NCBI GenBank assembly: GCA_000004985.1
Contig: GG738891.1
Length of the DNA: 64,000 nucleotides
From: Naegleria gruberi
Taxonomy: Eukaryota
Reading direction: 5' to 3' (one strand)
Under the pieces are notes generated by a model. It searched no databases and was not told the DNA's origin. It worked only from the letters and a program-made list of their open reading frames with translations. This document shows, piece by piece, positions 3,371 through 14,173 of the stretch (the stretch's first letter is position 1; each line of letters starts with the position of its first letter). The translations under genes and the position numbers were made by a program.

Positions 3371-5029
3371 TTATTCCTCTTCCTCATCCACTACACATGC
3401 ATCATCGCTTTCATATCCACTTGTTGATTTTCTTGGCATACGATTACCAATAGTGCTCTGGAAACGAGGAGCATTTGGATTTGGGAGTGGTCTCCTAGAA
3501 TCACGAACAACAGCTCTCTTTCTAACTGGTATTTTGATTTTCCTCACTGTTTGTCCTTCATTGTCAACTTCTGCTGTTTGTTGTTGATTCACTCCTTCTA
3601 CTGTATTTGCTGTTGGTTGTTGACTCATTTCCTCATCACTATTCGATTTTACATCTTCCGTAGTATCGTATTGTTGTGGAGATTCTTGACGTTGATCAAC
3701 AACTGCTTGTCTTTGTTTTGGTGAAATATCCATAACTTCCATCACTGGAGGTTCTGTTAGATAAGTTTGTTTCGAATTATTCATCTCCAAAGGATTCAAC
3801 AAAACAGGTGGTTGATTAAACGAGGTTTGTGGAGAAGTAGGAGTTGGCAATGCTTTCAAATACCCACTATGTGTCTTTATGCCATTGTGTGGTGTTGTAC
3901 TAATTTGTGGAGGTGGTGCCTGTTTCTTCACTGGTTTATCCCAAGTTGTCGTGCCAGATTGTGCATGATGATAATAGTACTGATTGCTTCCGTAATCGTA
4001 GTAAGCTACCCAACCCTCTTCCAATTGTTCTTCCTGTTGTTGTTGTTGTGTTGTACTAGTAGTTGTTGTTGTAGTTGTTTGTGTGTTGGAAACAGTTGCA
4101 GTTGTTGAGGCAGTTGTTGAAGAAGAAGACGAATTATTGGAAGTGTTTGATGAGGATATTGAGGATGCTGATACTGATGATGATGATGATGTACTGCTGC
4201 TATTATTTGATGATTCATCATCTCCGAATATAGAATGTGCTTCAGCAATCAGGGTTGTCATTAAATTACTAGAATATTTGGAATCCTGGAGAATTTCCAT
4301 GTGACTTTGAGGAAGATCTGATTTTAACAAGTTAGGAGCAAAAACAATGGCCAAATTACTTGGCGACATTTTGTTAATACTTGAATTTGCAGCAACTTTC
4401 TTCAAGAATAAACATAAATTCTTTAAAATTGTAAAGTTTGTGGGTGGAAGAAACTTGATTACTTTTTGAATCATGACCAATCTTTGTTCTTCATCAGGAA
4501 TTCTCTGAATATTTGTGAATTTCATGAATAATTTTCATTTGAATTATATTTTCGAAAGTCAAATGATTCGAATAAGATCTAAAAACAAGTCTAAATAACA
4601 TACCTCAGCTGCCAAAAACATTCCATACTGTTCATATGTCAATAAAGGATCCATCAATTCTCTCAAATACAATTTCAGTAAACTACTCGCCAAGTGAATT
4701 TCATATTTCTCATACGGAACATCAAATTTAATATTTTGCTCTAATTGTTGAATGACTTCATCTTCATCTGATTTTTTAGGTGAAATTCTAAAGATACCTT
4801 CAATCTTTAGTCCATTTTCGTCTAGATAGGACATGGCTTTTAATACGAAAGGAGGTAAATCATTTGGATCGAGTGGAAGTTTCTTTGCAAAAACTTTGGA
4901 ATTTGCAAACTTTTCATTGGTTGGGAATTTTTGTGAACCTGGTGAGTTAGCAGCAACTGGTGATGATGGTGAGTTGGAATTGGTTGGTGGAGATGTCGAT
5001 TTCTTGTTATTCTTTTTAAAGATTTTCAT
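3371..5029 (-). CDS. RhoGAP-domain protein with a C-terminal WW domain. Two exons: 5029..4604 and 4504..3371, with a 99-nt GTATGT..CAG intron.
   Basis: Exon 1 carries GIFRISPKK and HLASSLLKLYLRELMDPLLTYEQY, the RhoGAP arginine-finger region. Exon 2 carries LCLFLKKV, NKMSPSNLAIVFAPNLL and the WW motif GWVAYYDYGSNQYYYHHAQSGTTTWDKP. The track start at 5092 is GTG, so I took the first ATG at 5029. Poly-T, Q and S tracts are present. Confidence 0.6.
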
Positions 5030-5672
5030 CCCTTCTTCTTTGTTTTTATACGAAAGTAAACTAATGCTATTAGAAATATGATGAACACACACTATTGTAT
5101 GGTCAATATGAAGATGTTGAATGGAAGATGATGACGAAGGCTTTGTTGCTAATCCGAAAGTCCCAAATGATACTGTTGTGTTTTTGTGCTATTTTTTTTT
5201 ATGCTTGTCTGAACATTCATTGGACATTTGACGTGTGAGCGGGTCAGCCAACAGAAACTTGATTCCTAAAAACCCGTAAGTCTGAGGATTCGTGAGACTC
5301 GAGATTAATATTGGCAAAACGAATCCACATATTTCATTGTAATCAAATGCCAAATGCCAAACTGTCGAGACAATAAAGAATATAATCAAGCAAAAACAAG
5401 AGAAGATGTAAAAAGAGACAAGATATAAATTTCTTCATTGTGAAAAACATCAAATATTGCAAACGAACATGAAAACAGCAAGTAACACTATTTTCTAAAT
5501 TTATTCTTATTGAGGCAAGCTTTGATAGCATGAATTTTATTTCCTTTTGGGGATTGTTGTAAAATTAAAAGGAACAGGAAGTTTGGTAGAATGTCATGAA
5601 ATGCTTGCCGAATCTATTCGAATCAATTTTATTATTAATAATTCGAAATTAGGATCTTTTTTGTCGTGTCTG

Positions 5673-6978: not shown

Positions 6979-9273
6979 TTAATAAAATGGTTCCCCTCCA
7001 TTATAAACGTCCAAATATTCGATTCCCTCGAACTGTCTAAATCTGAAGTAATGAGCACCTGCAACTGATTGAATTAGGGCAGGATCCATCTCACTTGAAA
7101 CTATTGAGGCATCAGGAATCATTTCTGATGTTACCCTTTCAACAATCTCTTTCAGTTTTGGAATGTTAAAAGTACCTCCGGAAAGGATAACATGCTTAAT
7201 CTTTGGTACTCTTCCATATGGCGAAGGAATCATTCCCTCTGTGATGGATTCTCTTAGTAACTTCTCAAAGTTTGCAAATTCGTTTTCACATAGAGTGTAA
7301 AATTCATCCCTTGTAACTGTAACAGAAGATCCATTTGAAAGTTCTACGATTGTGGAATTATTGATAGAAAGGGAACCCTTTACCTTTTCACATTGCTTAA
7401 GATCGATTGAGGAGCTGTGCTTTTCTTCCAAATGCTTCAATAAAATGAAACTGAAATCCTTTCCATTACAGCATTCCAAAAACTTTTCAAATATAAGATG
7501 ACTGTAGTAGTATTGAGAAACCTCACTGATATTGACTACTGGCTTACTACTTGACCAATTAACCACTAGACAATCACTGCCCATAATTGATTGGATGAAT
7601 GCATAAGGTATAATTTCTCTTCCATCCTCACAACATTGCAAGACTGACAATCCACAAGCTTTAGCAGATTCTACAACTAGATATTTATCCTCTGTTGGGA
7701 CTAGTAATTGTACAATTTTGGTTGAGAAGTATTTCACATTACCATCAAGATTGATCCGATCACTTGCATAGCTTGTCTCCATGTGTTGTTTGAATTCTCT
7801 GAATAATTCCTTCATTCTTTCACTGTTCGAATAAATATTTTCATCATTCGTTTGAATAACTTTTGCTGTTACTCCAACTGAATTACTAATTGAAATTGAA
7901 GCTTTCCATCGAGTTCTTCCACAATCAATTGACCAAGGAGCATGATTAAATTTACATCTGGAAATGATATTGTCTCTAATAGCTTGATCTCTTAAAGTAG
8001 TAATTGCCCATGAAATAACAGGTTGAATTCCATCCAATTCAGGATTGTAATCAACTCCCATAAATCCAGAAATGTAATGAAACTCTTTCCACTTTTGATG
8101 ATTCAACACCTCGACACTTGTTGCCGTAATTGGATTAGGGAAGCATCCAATTTCAAAAGCCTCTCTCCATCTGAAAACTTTTGCAAGTTTCTCAACTTCA
8201 GACTCTCCAGTTTCTTCAAACAAGTAGCCCTGAGAGAAATCATCAGTATATGGTTCATTTTCAGCAAATTTAGAATCCATCTCGATAAATTTCTGTAAAT
8301 GGTATGAAACTCTGTTCTCTTTATCATATGGGAAGAAGTAATTGATCCATCCAGAAATGAAATCAAAGCCACTGCTAGAATCAAAGAGAGCAATACCATT
8401 CCAAAATGTTTTCAACTCTTCAGTGAGAGTTTCTTCTTGGGCTGTTTTGATAATCCTATCAAGAATGAGTGTCAAAACCTTTCTCCACCAAGCCATATCA
8501 TATTCGTCAAGGAGTTTGAGCTTCTCTCTCATTCCCAACCAGTCATCCATAGTTCCCAAAATTGTAACACTTGGAAGACCACATAAGAAATCATTCTTAT
8601 ACGAATAAAAATCCTTAAAAGCTTCCATCAACAACATTTTCGAGGCAACTTTCTCAACTTGGGTAGAAGTTGAAAAGTTGTGATCTATAAAGTCCATCAA
8701 TTTGATTTTTCTCTCATCTCCCTTATGGGATGAAACATCATTTACAATTGCCTGATGAATTTCATTCACAACTCCCTCCCAATTAATCTCAGCACTCACT
8801 GGATCAATATATTGAGGCATAGCAACAACAATATCCATCTTGTTTTGCTTTTCTTCAGCATTGCCAATCAATTCAGGTCTCAAAGCCAAATGCTTTACCA
8901 ATCCCTGTGTAATCATCATCCAAATGTGATCAGGACTCACAATCAATGGATAATGTTCACTGTAAGCAGTACAATAACAAGCAACAACAGGATGAGGTCT
9001 CACCAATAGATTCTTCAATGCATAGACATTATCGGGTGAGTGTATGACACTGTAACGGGATCGAATTAAATCCTGATCAACTTTATCTCCCTTCTCAATG
9101 GTATTAGTAAATAATTGATTTAATAAAACTCTTTCAGAAGGCTGACTGTAGAGTTTGCCAATTTCATAGGGTTTGGCTTCTTCTTGTTCATCCTCATCAA
9201 TCGGATGCTTCTTCTTTGGAGTCCATGATGAAGCATAGAAGGGAGTAAAATCCCTCTTACAAAGAACCTTCAT
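6979..9273 (-). CDS. Fusion protein. About 440 aa of an uncharacterised domain sit upstream of an Hsp70-like actin-fold ATPase domain. There is no Hsp70 substrate-binding domain.
   Basis: The C-terminal half aligns by eye to Hsp70 NBD blocks. SIDCGRTRWKASI matches the IDLGTT phosphate-1 block. LVVESAKACGLSVLQCCED matches ATKDAGVIAGLNVLRIINE. HVILSGGTFNIPKLKE matches IVLVGGSTRIPKVQ. DPALIQSVAGAHYF matches DEAVAYGAAVQAAIL. The phosphate-2 DLGGGTFD block is degenerate. The track start at 9342 is TTG and the first ATG is at 9273. An upstream exon was not excluded. Confidence 0.5.
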   Translation of the reverse strand: MKVLCKRDFTPFYASSWTPKKKHPIDEDEQEEAKPYEIGKLYSQPSERVLLNQLFTNTIEKGDKVDQDLIRSRYSVIHSPDNVYALKNLLVRPHPVVACYCTAYSEHYPLIVSPDHIWMMITQGLVKHLALRPELIGNAEEKQNKMDIVVAMPQYIDPVSAEINWEGVVNEIHQAIVNDVSSHKGDERKIKLMDFIDHNFSTSTQVEKVASKMLLMEAFKDFYSYKNDFLCGLPSVTILGTMDDWLGMREKLKLLDEYDMAWWRKVLTLILDRIIKTAQEETLTEELKTFWNGIALFDSSSGFDFISGWINYFFPYDKENRVSYHLQKFIEMDSKFAENEPYTDDFSQGYLFEETGESEVEKLAKVFRWREAFEIGCFPNPITATSVEVLNHQKWKEFHYISGFMGVDYNPELDGIQPVISWAITTLRDQAIRDNIISRCKFNHAPWSIDCGRTRWKASISISNSVGVTAKVIQTNDENIYSNSERMKELFREFKQHMETSYASDRINLDGNVKYFSTKIVQLLVPTEDKYLVVESAKACGLSVLQCCEDGREIIPYAFIQSIMGSDCLVVNWSSSKPVVNISEVSQYYYSHLIFEKFLECCNGKDFSFILLKHLEEKHSSSIDLKQCEKVKGSLSINNSTIVELSNGSSVTVTRDEFYTLCENEFANFEKLLRESITEGMIPSPYGRVPKIKHVILSGGTFNIPKLKEIVERVTSEMIPDASIVSSEMDPALIQSVAGAHYFRFRQFEGIEYLDVYNGGEPFY

Positions 9274-9442
9274 GTTGCGCAATTTTTTTGGAATTGTTCC
9301 ATCTTGTTCCTTAACAACAATATCTTTGATATCTGCTTCCAAAATATTTGTGCTTTCCCTTGTAAGGTGTTTTGTACAGTCCGCAGAGCAAAGATTGAGA
9401 AATTACAAAGGATTTGAAAATCATAAAATATATCTTACACGT

Positions 9443-11299
9443 TTATAACTTAGGGGTAGTGCTATTCTTTCTTACAGTAATTTCCTCATTTAGGTTTTCT
9501 TGTATGCATGCTAAAATCTTAGATTTGTTTTCAATGGCATAAAATTGTGACATTAAGTGAATTTGTTGAATTGGAGAATAGATTCTTATATTAATTCTTG
9601 CTTGAACTAGATCAAACCAATTAATGGAAGGGGGTGGAGCTAGAATTCCTGTAGTATATTCAGCAAGTGATTTCTCATCAATACTCCAATTATGTCTATA
9701 AATTTCTTTCCATATAACATCAGACTTGGCAGATTCGTACCAATGTCTACAAACAGAGAAACATGTCAATAAATCAGGTATATCCAAAAAGAGGAATATA
9801 TACACTAGGGAATCTGTAGTAATACGTCTATTGAGTTCACCATTATTCTTCTTTGATCCTTGCTTAATTGTAAGTTTAAATCCTTCAATGCATTGCATTA
9901 AATAGTCAGATGAAATATATATACAATTATCAGAATTATTTGAGAAGGTTTTCTGAATATTTTGTAAACTTAATACTTGAGTGTCTGATCCTACTGGAAG
10001 TGTGACAATCTTTCTATGTTTGGGTTTGCTTTGAATGACAACAGGTTTTTCTTCTTCTGGCACATACTCATCATCGTCAGCTTTTCTCTTTCTTTTACCT
10101 TTTCCAGTTCCAACAATTGTTAGTTCAGATTCCTCATCCATCATCTGATCTGCATCATCTGTACTTGATTGAGGTGCACTTGGAAGTGGTTTAGTTCTTG
10201 GTCTACCTCTTCCTCTCTTCTTTTCCACTTGTGGTGGTGATGGAGGTGGTAGTTCAACACTTGATGAGGCAGAAGCTACAATTGTTTGTACAGTTGCTTC
10301 CAAAGGAGGTGCTGGTTTTTTCTTGTTGGAAGAACCTTTTGGACGACCTCTACTCCTCTTTCCTTGTTTTTCAGGTGTTGAAACATTAGTAGATGTTGTT
10401 GTGGCAGCTGCTTCCAATGATGTTTGTGTGTTTGTCAATTGTGAAGAGGTTGCAGATTCCTCAGTGCCAGTAGTACTACTACTAGAAGATGATGGTTTGC
10501 TTTCATCAGTTGCTTTAAGAGATTCGGAAACAAGATGGCCTGCATCATTGTACTTGATAAAAGGTCTCACTCCCTGTTGGGCTCCTGTACCAGGATCTAA
10601 AAAGCCTACATTAGTGGAATATTTAATACCACAAGCATTACATAATGTTCCTGTTCCAAGAGGTCCCTTTCTCCAAGTAGGAGTATCCATACATCCACAA
10701 TTAGAGCAAACAGCCTTCGCTTGAATTCTCTTCACTTTCAATGAAGAAACAATAGAATCTCTTTCACCTTCTGCCAATTGTACAATTTCACCCTTCTTGC
10801 CAGGCTTCTTTTTCTTTTGGTGTTCTTCTGTGGTTGCTGTTGGTACTGTTGTGGATGCATCCTTGTCCCAAATTAATTGTAGTGTGGTTGGTGCCTCTGT
10901 ATTGATTGTTGTTGGTGGTAAATTGTTACAAGGAAGGGAGGAAGAGGCTGGATCTTGTCTGCCAACTTGTCCTCCTGAGGCTGAAAATACATTGGGAATA
11001 ACAGATGATCCATTCACAACACTACTAATAGAACCCTTCTCGGCACTAGAGGTTAATTGATCCAGAATACTACCGAGTGTTATTTCATTGGTGTTATCTG
11101 AGGTCATCCCGACAATCCCTGGCGTGTTAGTATCAACAGATGAAGCAGTTAGGGGTGTACTAGACTCTTGAACCTCTAGTTTGACTGTAGAAGATGACAA
11201 CACGTCTACAGCTGCTGGACTAACAGTGTTAGCCTCCTGAGTTGTTGAAGGAGGATGATTCAGCTGTGTTTCTTCTTGGTTTTCGGAGGCGAGGCTCAT
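9443..11299 (-). CDS. GATA-type zinc-finger protein with two AT-hooks and a C-terminal F-box-like motif.
   Basis: The GATA zinc finger reads CSNCGCMDTPTWRKGPLGTGTLCNACG. The AT-hooks are KRSRGRPKGS and KRGRGRPRTKP. The C-terminus reads DIPDLLTCFSVCRHWYESAKSDVIWKEIYRHNW, which is F-box-like. The track start is GTG. A real ATG (MSLASENQ) sits at 11299 after an A-run. Confidence 0.6.
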   Translation of the reverse strand: MSLASENQEETQLNHPPSTTQEANTVSPAAVDVLSSSTVKLEVQESSTPLTASSVDTNTPGIVGMTSDNTNEITLGSILDQLTSSAEKGSISSVVNGSSVIPNVFSASGGQVGRQDPASSSLPCNNLPPTTINTEAPTTLQLIWDKDASTTVPTATTEEHQKKKKPGKKGEIVQLAEGERDSIVSSLKVKRIQAKAVCSNCGCMDTPTWRKGPLGTGTLCNACGIKYSTNVGFLDPGTGAQQGVRPFIKYNDAGHLVSESLKATDESKPSSSSSSTTGTEESATSSQLTNTQTSLEAAATTTSTNVSTPEKQGKRSRGRPKGSSNKKKPAPPLEATVQTIVASASSSVELPPPSPPQVEKKRGRGRPRTKPLPSAPQSSTDDADQMMDEESELTIVGTGKGKRKRKADDDEYVPEEEKPVVIQSKPKHRKIVTLPVGSDTQVLSLQNIQKTFSNNSDNCIYISSDYLMQCIEGFKLTIKQGSKKNNGELNRRITTDSLVYIFLFLDIPDLLTCFSVCRHWYESAKSDVIWKEIYRHNWSIDEKSLAEYTTGILAPPPSINWFDLVQARINIRIYSPIQQIHLMSQFYAIENKSKILACIQENLNEEITVRKNSTTPKL

Positions 11300-11562
11300 T
11301 TTTTTAATTAAAAATAATAAAATATTTGTGATGATGATAGAAAATTGTTCATCAAAGGACAACCTGTTGTGATCTTTGTTGTAACTTGAATGGAACACAA
11401 TTTTAGATTAATGGATTGTGTTTATTTTGTGGTGGTTGTACTGTGTCGGATGATCGTATTGCAAGACTTTCATTATCTAACTTTTGTCATTTTCAAATAT
11501 GTTGATTATTATTGCAATGTTGAACACAATTTGGATGAGAACAAGGATTAGATTCTTTCTTG

Positions 11563-13144: not shown

Positions 13145-14173
13145 ATGATAAGCAACAACAAGTTACCATCATCCATATTATTATCATCATCTTCAAATTC
13201 TAATAACAATAACATTTCAACAACACCACGAGGGGAAATGCTTACCATCAATGATTTGCAATCACCTTCTCCGAATAGATCTGGAAGAGTAGCCTCTTCG
13301 GGTTTATTATTGGCAACATCAACTCCTCCTCCCCTCAATATTTCAAAGAAGCTGAATAATTCAACGATGGGTTTAGCAAATAGTAATAATAATAGCAACA
13401 ACAATAGTAGCAACAATAGTGCTCGTGTGAGTCCCCTCGTTGAAAGATTGAATGCAGTTAAGAACACAGCCCAATCATTTAATGGAGGATTAATGGAAGA
13501 TTTAAATTCTAGGAAGGAAGTAGAACAAACCAAAGTGTACGAACTAAGAGATACTGTATCTAGATTGGAGAAGGATTTGACTATGGAAATGAGGAAGAGA
13601 GCAGATGGAGACAAGGTCTTACAAACAATGTGTGATAACAAGATAAATACTATACAGGATTTGATAGAGAAGAAAATGTCTGAAAAGTTTTCTCAAATGC
13701 AACAAACTGTTGATACTCTCACTAAACGTGTTCTAAGTCTGGAAAAGTGTTTGGCTGAGGAGAAGGATTATTCATCCAAGTTTTCAACCTCTATGAAATC
13801 TGGTGTTTTGGGACAATTGGAAGAACTCAGAAATCTAGTTGAGGACGAAAGATTGAATCGATTGGATAGAGAATCTCAAATGATGAGAAAGTTCAATGAT
13901 GAATATTACAAACTCTCTCAAAAGTTAGACACTGAAAAGAAATCTAGGGAAATATTTATGAATTCCACACGTGAGGAAATTGAAAGAATTGAACAAGCTA
14001 AGGCCAAAATTGATCAGGACTTTAGAGCTCAACTCTTTGAAGAAATTGATTCGATTCGTGATGAAATCAAAGTTGAAAAGGAACAACGAGAAATTGTCGA
14101 TGAGCAAATAGTTTCTTCCTTAGATACGATTATCAAGGAAGTCCACGACTCTCTCAGATTAGTTACTAAATAA
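13145..14173 (+). CDS. Coiled-coil protein, 342 aa, with an Asn/Ser-rich N-terminus.
   Basis: ATG at 13145. The C-terminal 230 aa show strongly heptad-like charged patterning (EKDL, EKCLAEEKD, ELRNLVEDERLNRLDRE). Confidence 0.4.
   Translation: MISNNKLPSSILLSSSSNSNNNNISTTPRGEMLTINDLQSPSPNRSGRVASSGLLLATSTPPPLNISKKLNNSTMGLANSNNNSNNNSSNNSARVSPLVERLNAVKNTAQSFNGGLMEDLNSRKEVEQTKVYELRDTVSRLEKDLTMEMRKRADGDKVLQTMCDNKINTIQDLIEKKMSEKFSQMQQTVDTLTKRVLSLEKCLAEEKDYSSKFSTSMKSGVLGQLEELRNLVEDERLNRLDRESQMMRKFNDEYYKLSQKLDTEKKSREIFMNSTREEIERIEQAKAKIDQDFRAQLFEEIDSIRDEIKVEKEQREIVDEQIVSSLDTIIKEVHDSLRLVTK

What the first reader, a model, noticed from the sequence alone, without database searches (positions are those of the whole stretch)
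6979..9342. Fusion of an uncharacterised 440-aa domain to a stand-alone Hsp70-like nucleotide-binding domain with a degenerate phosphate-2 motif
The C-terminal 330 aa align block-by-block with the Hsp70 NBD: IDCGRT, ESAKACGL, GGTFNIPKLKE and AGAHYF. There is no substrate-binding domain. The DLGGGTFD motif is replaced. This suggests an ATPase-dead scaffold or a diverged actin-fold enzyme. The N-terminal partner domain is not one I can name. The translation start is ambiguous: TTG at 9342, ATG at 9273, and an open frame back to about 9400.
Basis: partly seen in the sequence, partly recalled or inferred. Interest (0 to 1): 0.6.

Follow-up and report, generated by a model that had tools for sequence, protein, structure and literature searches.

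The report
DUF4419 fused to crippled Hsp70 ATPase domain
This is a real single gene of a Naegleria-type amoeba that joins a widespread but unstudied domain (DUF4419) to a stripped-down, probably non-hydrolysing copy of the Hsp70 ATPase domain; the combination is an uncharacterised, lineage-restricted curiosity, not a new kind of system.

Summary
The ORF is real. It runs from ATG 9273 to the stop at 6979-6981 on the minus strand and encodes 764 aa.

- **Organism:** a eukaryote. The best homologues are from Naegleria lovaniensis and N. gruberi.
- **C-terminal half:** clearly Hsp70-derived. A profile search of PDB returns only Hsp70 NBDs (E=4e-15), and Foldseek gives probability 1.0.
  - Kept: phosphate-1 (IDCGRT), the adenosine motif (SGGTFNIP) and the IIB motif CEKxK..LS.
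  - Lost: all of subdomain IB, and so the catalytic Lys71 counterpart. The phosphate-2 loop DLGGGTFD has become NWSSSKPV.
  - There is no substrate-binding domain.
- **Distribution:** among 1.84 billion representative proteins the fusion occurs only in the two Naegleria homologues and one environmental contig. In N. lovaniensis about 190 aa are deleted in frame.
- **Rate:** the NBD evolves about twice as fast as DUF4419.
- **Best reading:** DUF4419 is the functional core. The pseudo-NBD is a non-hydrolysing accessory module, in the position where other DUF4419 proteins carry LRR, HEAT, SUKH or serpin modules. This mechanism is inferred, not shown.

Interest is moderate to low.

The parts
6979..9273 (-). 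Complete single-exon CDS: ATG at 9273, stop at 6979-6981, 764 aa.
   Evidence: ORF list. There is no ATG between the upstream in-frame stop (9403-9405) and 9273. The N-terminus MKVLCKRDFTPFY is identical to N. lovaniensis P0001. The protein is colinear end to end with N. gruberi P0002.
9172..9273 (-). N-terminal ~34 aa. Poorly conserved and predicted disordered. No signal peptide.
   Evidence: AF2 pLDDT is 30-46 over residues 1-47. Identity between homologues is 30-52%.
7996..9171 (-). DUF4419 domain in its extended form (aa 35-426). The Pfam-defined core is aa 94-424, nt 8002-8994. Motifs: AYSEHYPLIVSPDHIW (8920-8967), NFSTST (8662-8679), CGLP (8572-8583), GTMDDW (8539-8556), SGWINYFFPYD (8323-8355), PVISWA (8005-8022).
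7936..7995 (-). Short linker of about 20 aa (TLRDQAIRDNIISRCKFNHA) joining DUF4419 directly to NBD strand beta-1.
   Evidence: The pattern R-x-N-[LI]..F-x-[HR]-x-x-W is shared by the window, N. gruberi and the environmental homologue. Part of it is predicted helical.
7027..7935 (-). Hsp70-derived nucleotide-binding domain without subdomain IB (aa 447-749).
   Evidence: PDB profile search returns Hsp70 NBDs only, best E=4.2e-15. Foldseek gives E~1e-8 and probability 1.0. hhalign becomes colinear from phosphate-1 to the C-terminal helix only when Hsc70/DnaK residues 36-112 are removed. The predicted secondary structure of lobe IA is b-b-b-a-b-a-b.
7912..7929 (-). Phosphate-1 motif IDCGRT, equivalent to Hsc70 IDLGTT. 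Asp10, Gly12 and Thr14 are kept; Thr13 is replaced by Arg.
   Evidence: hhalign against the IB-deleted Hsc70. The motif is conserved as IDCG[RYS]T in three homologues.
7537..7560 (-). Degenerate phosphate-2 loop NWSSSKPV, equivalent to Hsc70 D199-LGGGTF-D206. Changes: D199N, GGG to SSS, T204K, D206V.
   Evidence: The loop differs between homologues: DWPTGEPF in N. gruberi and DWGSSDPF in the environmental contig.
7366..7392 (-). Subdomain IIB motif CEKVKGSLS, equivalent to Hsc70 CERAKRTLS. It contains the counterparts of Glu268, Lys271 and Ser275, which contact the nucleoside.
   Evidence: C, E, K, L and S are invariant in all four homologues. The residue roles come from established Hsc70 structural knowledge and were not tested here.
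7147..7185 (-). Adenosine motif LSGGTFNIPKLKE, equivalent to Hsc70 LVGGSTRIPKIQK.
   Evidence: GG..IP is invariant in all four homologues. This is the best-scoring Pfam and PDB segment.
6982..7026 (-). C-terminal tail GIEYLDVYNGGEPFY. It may be a vestige of the Hsp70 NBD-SBD interdomain linker. No SBD follows.
   Evidence: A BLAST alignment with an environmental Hsp70 (L013) pairs GIEYLDV with the linker-like NIDIIDI. This is weak evidence: the LDV is not conserved in the other Naegleria homologues.

Best explanation
**What it is.** A cytosolic two-module protein of a Naegleria-lineage amoeba.

**Module 1.** An intact DUF4419 domain. This family is patchily distributed in bacteria, amoebae and giant or insect DNA viruses, has unknown biochemistry, and has no solved structural relative.

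**Module 2.** An Hsp70 NBD attached through a short conserved linker.
- It has lost subdomain IB and therefore the catalytic Lys71.
- It has lost the glycine-rich phosphate-2 loop, the Thr204 and Asp206 counterparts and, in this species, Asp199.
- It has lost the whole substrate-binding domain.
- It keeps phosphate-1 (D-x-G-x-T), an acidic residue at the Glu175 position, the IIB nucleoside-contact motif (CE-x-x-K-x-x-LS) and the adenosine motif (GG-x-x-x-IP).

**Most likely mechanism (inferred).**
- DUF4419 is the conserved working part.
- The Hsp70 remnant no longer runs an ATPase or chaperone cycle.
- It serves as a non-hydrolysing accessory, adaptor or regulatory module, and may still bind an adenine nucleotide.
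- It sits in the C-terminal slot that other DUF4419 proteins fill with protein-binding or inhibitor modules (LRR, HEAT, SUKH, serpin).

**Shown versus inferred.** Shown: the architecture, its homology, the motif status and its restriction to this lineage. Inferred: loss of hydrolysis, the adaptor role, and any nucleotide binding.
For: **One gene, conserved fusion.**
- The continuous ORF is colinear with N. gruberi P0002 over 93% of its length.
- The same order occurs in N. lovaniensis P0001.
- It also occurs in the environmental contig L006 once a 1-nt homopolymer indel is repaired.

**DUF4419 is intact and constrained.**
- Pfam E=4e-68 with all invariant residues present.
- Identity between homologues is 47-70%. 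dN is 0.20 against 0.54 for NBD lobe II, window versus N. lovaniensis.

**The NBD is Hsp70-derived.** The Hsp70-specific blocks LGG.DF, CE.AK..LS and ITR..FE are recognisable.

**Subdomain IB is absent.**
- There are 100 residues rather than 165 between the Asp10 and Glu175 equivalents.
- The AF2 secondary structure of lobe IA is b-b-b-a-b-a-b with no inserted subdomain.
- BLAST and hhalign place the helix SERMKELF... on Hsc70 alpha-1.
- The alignment is end to end only against an IB-deleted template.

**The phosphate-2 loop is replaced and varies among homologues,** whereas phosphate-1 and the adenosine and IIB motifs are invariant.

**The J-domain contact arginine is not conserved.** The Hsc70 Arg171 position is Gln in the window and Cys in N. 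gruberi (alignments; the role of Arg171 is from prior knowledge).

**Other DUF4419 proteins carry variable C-terminal modules:** LRR+HEAT, SUKH-4, SMI1/KNR4 and tandem DUF4419, and Plug/CarboxypepD_reg+serpin.

**The fusion is unique to this lineage.** Only P0001, P0002 and the fragment P0091 (from contig L006) are close to it among 1.84e9 representative proteins. None was found in JGI metagenomes.
Against: - No biochemical or expression data exist, and no paper mentions the gene or its homologues.
- Loss of hydrolysis is inferred from Hsp70 rules. Other ASKHA enzymes catalyse phosphoryl transfer without a Lys71 equivalent.
- N. gruberi and the environmental homologue keep Asp199, and the phosphate-2 positions remain small residues.
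- AF2 gives low confidence for lobe I (pLDDT 35-75) and no usable information on domain packing (pTM 0.53).
- The N. lovaniensis homologue has lost about 190 aa, including the end of DUF4419 and lobe I. The NBD may therefore be dispensable rather than functional.
- The function of DUF4419 is unknown, so 'working part' rests only on its conservation.
Confidence: 0.5

Rival explanations
1. The C-terminal domain is still an active, non-canonical ASKHA ATPase or kinase. Its nucleotide turnover drives or supplies the DUF4419 domain.
For: Phosphate-1 D-x-G-x-T, an acidic residue at the Glu175 position, the adenosine GG..IP motif and the IIB nucleoside contacts are all conserved. Asp199 is kept in N. 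gruberi and in the environmental homologue (DWPTG, DWGSS). ASKHA enzymes outside Hsp70 do not need Lys71 (prior knowledge).
Against: Subdomain IB, and with it Lys71, is absent. The Thr204 and Asp206 counterparts are lost in all homologues. The window protein also has D199N and T13R. The phosphate-2 loop differs in every homologue, which is unexpected for a catalytic loop. N. lovaniensis has deleted lobe I altogether.
Confidence: 0.2
2. The Hsp70 part is a functionless relic of an old fusion that drifts neutrally. The gene is on the way to loss, and only DUF4419 matters.
For: The NBD is 22-39% identical between homologues, against 47-70% for DUF4419. dN is about 2.7 times higher in the NBD. N. 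lovaniensis has an in-frame ~190-aa deletion that removes lobe I. N. lovaniensis also has a DUF4419-only paralogue, P0124.
Against: - The reading frame is kept open over more than 300 codons in at least three lineages even though synonymous sites are saturated (dS>1). This is in A+T-rich genomes, where stop codons arise easily.
- The residues that stay invariant are mostly identical to Hsc70 residues and lie in its nucleoside-binding blocks; these are not random positions.
- The remaining C-terminal 177 codons in N. lovaniensis are still open and 39% identical to the window protein.
Confidence: 0.2
3. The NBD remnant is a decoy or docking site for the Hsp70 co-chaperone network (J-proteins or nucleotide-exchange factors). 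It would tether DUF4419 to chaperone machinery.
For: Lobe II, including IIB, is the best-conserved and best-modelled part (pLDDT 85-94). IIB is a known binding surface for exchange factors (prior knowledge).
Against: The position of the J-domain contact Arg171 is not conserved. Subdomain IB, which is half of the BAG/Hsp110/GrpE-type interface, is missing. No direct evidence exists.
Confidence: 0.07
4. Artefact: two adjacent genes joined by the ORF finder, or a chance resemblance to Hsp70.
For: None, beyond the weak single-sequence Pfam score of 22.8 bits.
Against: The ORF is uninterrupted. The linker is conserved and the architecture is the same in three other sequences. The profile E-value is 4e-15, and the sequence hits listed and the top 47 structure hits are all Hsp70 NBDs.
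Confidence: 0.02

Closest known systems
N. gruberi predicted protein XP_002681138 / D2V4I9 (NAEGRDRAFT_63746) and N. lovaniensis C9374_009046
   Same: Same DUF4419 + linker + Hsp70-like NBD order, with both Pfam families precomputed for these entries. Identity over the whole protein is 39-41% for N. gruberi and 59-61% for N. lovaniensis.
   Different: Both are uncharacterised 'predicted' or 'hypothetical' proteins. The N. gruberi phosphate-2 loop keeps Asp199 (DWPTGEPF), and the protein has a longer acidic C-terminal tail. The N. lovaniensis protein lacks window residues ~403-595. The flanks of the N. lovaniensis locus are not syntenic with the window.
Canonical Hsp70 nucleotide-binding domain (HSPA1A, HSPA8, BiP, DnaK; Pfam PF00012)
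   Same: ASKHA two-lobe fold. Shared features are phosphate-1, the adenosine motif, the IIB motifs CE.AK..LS and ITR..FE, the LGG.DF block and the C-terminal helix. Eukaryotic cytosolic Hsp70s score best.
   Different: No subdomain IB and so no Lys71. The phosphate-2 loop is not glycine-rich. The Thr204 and Asp206 counterparts are lost. There is no SBD or lid. A 446-aa foreign region sits N-terminal to strand beta-1. Identity is only about 17-25%.
Atypical or truncated Hsp70 relatives: HSPA13/STCH (NBD only), Ssz1/HSPA14 (non-cycling), Hsp110 (from prior knowledge, not tested here)
   Same: These are precedents for Hsp70-derived NBDs that lack an SBD or no longer hydrolyse ATP and act as partners or regulators.
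   Different: As far as I know, all of them retain a full four-subdomain NBD. None is fused to DUF4419. No specific similarity to them was detected or tested.
DUF4419 family (PF14388) proteins of Bacteroidota, Fibrobacter and Planctomycetes, and of giant and insect DNA viruses
   Same: The N-terminal half is a full-length member with all invariant residues. Viral members match the model with Foldseek probability 1.0.
   Different: About half of the bacterial members have signal-like N-termini. Their C-terminal modules are different: extensions with no Pfam match, LRR/HEAT, SUKH or serpin. None has an Hsp70-like domain. The Naegleria proteins carry an acidic insertion inside the domain.

Membership tests
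DUF4419 (Pfam PF14388) | Score above the Pfam gathering threshold with full-length model coverage | tested here: met
   230.4 bits against a cutoff of 25, E=4.3e-68, model positions 1-303 of 303.
DUF4419 (Pfam PF14388) | Family-invariant residues: A..H, P, Q, W, F(ST), CG.P, G...DW, WW, FW | tested here: met
   All 14 invariant columns of the 124-sequence alignment are present in the window protein.
DUF4419 (Pfam PF14388) | A known biochemical activity or a known fold | not testable with these tools
Hsp70 family NBD (Pfam PF00012 / ASKHA) | Sequence-profile membership | tested here: met
   Pfam HSP70 scores 22.8 bits against a cutoff of 20.6, so it only just passes; the homologues score 35.5 and 33.8. 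The 4-sequence profile hits only Hsp70 NBDs in PDB, best E=4.2e-15.
Hsp70 family NBD (Pfam PF00012 / ASKHA) | Two-lobe actin-like fold | tested here: met
   Foldseek ranks 1-47 are Hsp70/BiP/DnaK NBDs with probability 1.0. Lobe II is modelled with confidence; lobe I has low confidence.
Hsp70 family NBD (Pfam PF00012 / ASKHA) | Phosphate-1 motif (I/V)DLGTT | tested here: met
   IDCGRT: Asp, Gly and the second Thr are kept, and Thr13 is replaced by Arg.
Hsp70 family NBD (Pfam PF00012 / ASKHA) | Phosphate-2 motif DLGGGTFD | tested here: not met
   The motif is NWSSSKPV in the window, DWPTGEPF in N. gruberi and DWGSSDPF in the environmental homologue.
Hsp70 family NBD (Pfam PF00012 / ASKHA) | Subdomain IB with the catalytic Lys71 | tested here: not met
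   About 65 residues are missing between phosphate-1 and the Glu175 equivalent. The alignment is colinear only with an IB-deleted Hsc70/DnaK. No IB elements appear in the model.
Hsp70 family NBD (Pfam PF00012 / ASKHA) | Adenosine motif GG.TRIP and the IIB nucleoside contacts | tested here: met
   SGGTFNIP and CEKVKGSLS. GG..IP and C-E-K-L-S are invariant in all four homologues.
Hsp70 chaperone (functional class) | Substrate-binding domain and lid after the interdomain linker | tested here: not met
   The protein ends 15-25 residues after the last NBD helix. Pfam HSP70 matches only model positions 258-351 of 599.
Hsp70 chaperone (functional class) | ATP binding and hydrolysis, and stimulation by J-proteins | not testable with these tools
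   Indirect evidence only: the counterparts of the catalytic residues are missing and the Arg171 position is not conserved.

The most novel reading that the evidence does not exclude
DUF4419 is an undescribed enzyme or ligand-binding fold. Its family-invariant His, Gln, Cys and Asp, with no PDB relative, would form the active site. In Naegleria its activity would be gated by adenine-nucleotide binding to a hydrolysis-dead, IB-less Hsp70 NBD. That would be an Hsp70 ATPase domain reused as an allosteric nucleotide sensor outside the chaperone system.
Probability: 0.1. Interest if true: 0.6.

Novelty: new variant of a known kind. Interest (0 to 1): 0.35.

Why it matters
If the inference holds, this is a clean natural example of an Hsp70 ATPase domain reduced to three subdomains and reused as a non-chaperone accessory module. 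It would also give an experimental way into DUF4419. That family has thousands of members in bacteria, amoebae and giant or insect viruses, with no known function and no solved fold.

The practical importance is limited. The fusion is confined to Naegleria and its close relatives, it is already visible as an unstudied domain architecture in public databases, and one species has partly deleted it.

Tried and rejected
1. **NBD-only homologue search.** The search for homologous proteins with the NBD-only alignment A2 returned nothing, not even P0002. I treat this as a limitation of the word-index search, not as evidence.
2. **Global MAFFT alignment with Hsc70/DnaK.** It suggested a Lys71 counterpart, Ser in the window and Lys in N. 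gruberi. I rejected this. BLAST, global hhalign and the test against an IB-deleted template put that helix on Hsc70 alpha-1, with IB absent.
3. **dN/dS between homologues.** Synonymous sites are saturated (dS 1.1-4.3 or undefined). Only the relative dN values are usable.
4. **NCBIfam, PADLOC and PHROGs scans.** Only sub-threshold DnaK/HscA matches and nothing defence- or phage-related.
5. **Function from bacterial gene neighbourhoods.**
   - Five individual loci and 69 genome loci show no universal neighbour.
   - About 12 Prevotellaceae loci share an operon of ECF sigma factor, anti-sigma-like protein and DUF4251 protein, followed by DUF4419 proteins, some of which are fused to a serpin.
   - This is probably lineage synteny and does not reveal an activity.
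7. **Source organism and extra loci.** Exact-sequence look-ups for the window protein failed, as did retrieval of the N. gruberi locus.
8. **JGI metagenome scan with the NBD profile.** It found only ordinary Hsp70 genes, none with DUF4419.
10. **Literature.** Nothing on the gene, its homologues or DUF4419 function.
Full report
**Observation**

The minus-strand ORF at 6979..9342 exists. It has 787 codons when counted from a TTG.
- The window is eukaryotic.
  - G+C is about 33% throughout.
  - Neighbouring genes encode a RhoGAP+WW protein split between two ORFs, a GATA+F-box protein, an F-box+LRR protein and SF-assemblin.
  - The closest homologues of the ORF are from Naegleria lovaniensis (P0001, 59-61% identity) and N. 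gruberi (P0002, 39-41% identity over 93% of the query).
- The TTG is therefore irrelevant.
  - The frame is open back to 9402, but the first ATG is at 9273.
  - The peptide that starts there, MKVLCKRDFTPFY, is identical to the annotated N-terminus of the N. lovaniensis protein.
- The gene is a single exon: ATG 9273 to the stop at 6979-6981, 764 aa.

**N-terminal half**

The N-terminal half can be named. It is Pfam DUF4419 (PF14388), E=4.3e-68, covering the whole model.
- A profile search collected 157 homologues, mostly from Bacteroidota.
- An exhaustive search of 1.84 billion representative proteins gave 5,644 hits at E of 0.001 or better.
- In a 124-sequence alignment the window protein has all 14 invariant residues. 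These include one His, one Gln, one Cys and one Asp.
- Among viral models it matches only DUF4419 proteins of giant and insect DNA viruses.
- The literature holds only two passing mentions of the family.

**C-terminal half**

The C-terminal half comes from the Hsp70 lineage.
- The single sequence only just passes the Pfam HSP70 threshold (22.8 bits against 20.6). The two Naegleria homologues pass clearly, at 35.5 and 33.8 bits.
- A profile built from the Naegleria sequences hits only Hsp70 NBDs in PDB.
  - With three sequences the best E-value is 7e-11. With four sequences it is 4.2e-15.
  - Eukaryotic cytosolic Hsp70s rank first.
- The full-length AF2 model gives Hsp70, BiP and DnaK NBDs at Foldseek ranks 1-47, with probability 1.0.
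- Hsp70-specific blocks are recognisable: LGG.DF, CE.AK..LS, ITR..FE and GG..IP.

**How the NBD differs from a normal one**

The domain is not a normal NBD.
- Subdomain IB is absent.
  - The counterparts of Asp10 and Glu175 are 100 residues apart, against 165 in Hsc70.
  - The model shows a bare b-b-b-a-b-a-b lobe IA.
  - BLAST against an environmental Hsp70, and global hhalign, both place the helix SERMKELFREFKQHME on Hsc70 helix alpha-1, residues 116-135.
  - hhalign runs colinear from phosphate-1 to the C-terminal helix only when Hsc70/DnaK residues 36-112 are deleted from the template: 275 aligned columns, score 91.6. With the intact template it gives 253 columns, no phosphate-1 and score 87.7.
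  - The catalytic Lys71 therefore has no counterpart.
  - An earlier MAFFT alignment that suggested one was mis-registered.
- Phosphate-2 (DLGGGTFD) is NWSSSKPV in the window protein. It differs in each homologue: DWPTGEPF in N. gruberi and DWGSSDPF in the environmental sequence.
- Other motifs are conserved across homologues: phosphate-1 (IDCG.T), an acidic residue at the Glu175 position, the IIB motif and the adenosine motif.
The PDB alignments independently show the same register for lobe II.
- No SBD follows the NBD. The 15-residue tail aligns weakly with the Hsp70 interdomain linker, which I treat only as a hint.

**Is the fusion real, and how widespread is it?**

- The linker and the domain order are shared with N. 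gruberi P0002.
- They are also shared with an environmental contig, L006. Its two adjacent gene calls become one 687-codon ORF after a single T is inserted in a homopolymer run.
- N. lovaniensis P0001 is a single-exon gene with an in-frame loss of window residues ~403-595. The lost segment covers the end of DUF4419, the linker, lobe I and phosphate-2.
- N. lovaniensis also has a DUF4419-only paralogue, P0124.
- No other sequence among the 1.84e9 representatives combines the two parts.
- A JGI metagenome scan with the NBD profile found only ordinary Hsp70 genes.
- The window holds no second copy.

**Relative constraint on the two halves**

- DUF4419 is 47-70% identical between homologues. The NBD is 22-39% identical.
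- Between the window and N. lovaniensis, dN is 0.20 for DUF4419 and 0.54 for NBD lobe II. dS is saturated, so omega values are not reliable.

**Context of the DUF4419 family**

- Other members carry different C-terminal modules.
  - These include LRR+HEAT, SUKH-4, SMI1/KNR4 and tandem DUF4419 copies.
  - In rumen Prevotellaceae the module is Plug/CarboxypepD_reg-like domains plus a serpin. There the gene lies downstream of an ECF sigma factor, an anti-sigma-like membrane protein and a DUF4251 protein.
- About half of the bacterial members have signal-like N-termini.
- No gene neighbour is universal.

**Interpretation**

- The architecture, the homology and the state of each motif are shown by the results above.
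- The mechanism is inferred.
  - DUF4419 is the conserved working module, of unknown activity.
  - The Hsp70 remnant lacks IB, Lys71, the glycine loop and the Thr204 and Asp206 counterparts, and in this species it also has D199N. It has no SBD and no conserved Arg171.
  - It is therefore unlikely to run an Hsp70 ATPase or chaperone cycle.
  - It most likely acts as a non-hydrolysing accessory or adaptor module, and may still bind an adenine nucleotide.
  - This parallels the variable binding modules attached to DUF4419 in other organisms.
- Three rivals cannot be excluded without experiments: an active non-canonical ASKHA enzyme, a neutral relic and a co-chaperone decoy.
- The 'two genes' and 'chance similarity' rivals are refuted.

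**Novelty and interest**

- The same Pfam architecture is already recorded for the N. gruberi and N. lovaniensis entries, but nothing has been published on it.
- I rate it a new variant of a known kind: an IB-less, SBD-less Hsp70 NBD in a new fusion.
- Interest is moderate to low.

Noticed in passing
L001:6001-7782 (N. lovaniensis PYSW02000037.1): The N. lovaniensis homologue is a single open frame that lacks the equivalent of window residues ~403-595: the last strands of DUF4419, the linker, NBD lobe I and phosphate-2. Its flanking genes (RasGAP/IQGAP, a Myosin_TH1/Pkinase-domain protein, RecQ-like helicase) are not syntenic with the window.
   Followed up: partly
L006:4658-6717 (ENA ERZ27315067 k141_375068): An environmental contig encodes a fourth DUF4419-NBD fusion, called as two genes. 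Inserting one T in the run at ~5437 restores a 687-codon ORF that reaches the contig end. This is probably a homopolymer assembly error in an uncultured Naegleria relative.
   Followed up: yes
L088:1119-4283, L074:3105-6125, L085:9510-12236, L090:7725-10307 (rumen Prevotellaceae MAGs): Secreted DUF4419 proteins are fused to Plug/CarboxypepD_reg-like domains and a C-terminal serpin. They lie downstream of an ECF sigma factor, an anti-sigma-like membrane protein, a DUF4251 protein and repeated unknown secreted proteins, all on one strand. This operon appears to be undescribed.
   Followed up: partly
window 3371-5092 (-): A RhoGAP domain is split between two ORFs: profile positions 1-83 in 4559-5092 and positions 79-146 in 3371-4525. 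A WW domain follows. This fits a short intron around 4520-4600. The splice sites were not resolved.
   Followed up: partly
window 9443-11398 (-): The upstream neighbour, whose stop codon lies only 170 bp from the ATG at 9273, combines a GATA zinc finger, GRP/AT-hook-like basic runs and a C-terminal F-box in one ORF. This is an unusual pairing of a DNA-binding finger with an SCF adaptor motif.
   Followed up: no
window 13145-14173 (+): An SF-assemblin/beta-giardin homologue (E=4e-33), consistent with an amoeboflagellate source organism.
   Followed up: no
L007:5001-6245 (N. lovaniensis PYSW02000003.1): A DUF4419-only paralogue (P0124, 414 aa, 34.5% identical to the window protein's DUF4419 half) exists at another N. 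lovaniensis locus. Naegleria therefore has at least two DUF4419 genes. No counterpart lies in this window.
   Followed up: partly
P0223, P0221, P0135, P0125, P0170: DUF4419 is fused to SUKH-4, SMI1/KNR4 or LRR+HEAT, or repeated two to three times in tandem. This pattern is reminiscent of poly-immunity or binding-module proteins of bacterial conflict systems. Their genomic contexts could not be fetched.
   Followed up: no
L008:4510-7416 (Bernardetia litoralis CP003345.1): Two DUF4419 genes lie in tandem next to WYL/WCX and RlaP genes. Tandem duplication also occurs in 9 of the 68 bacterial loci where a DUF4419 ORF was called.
   Followed up: no
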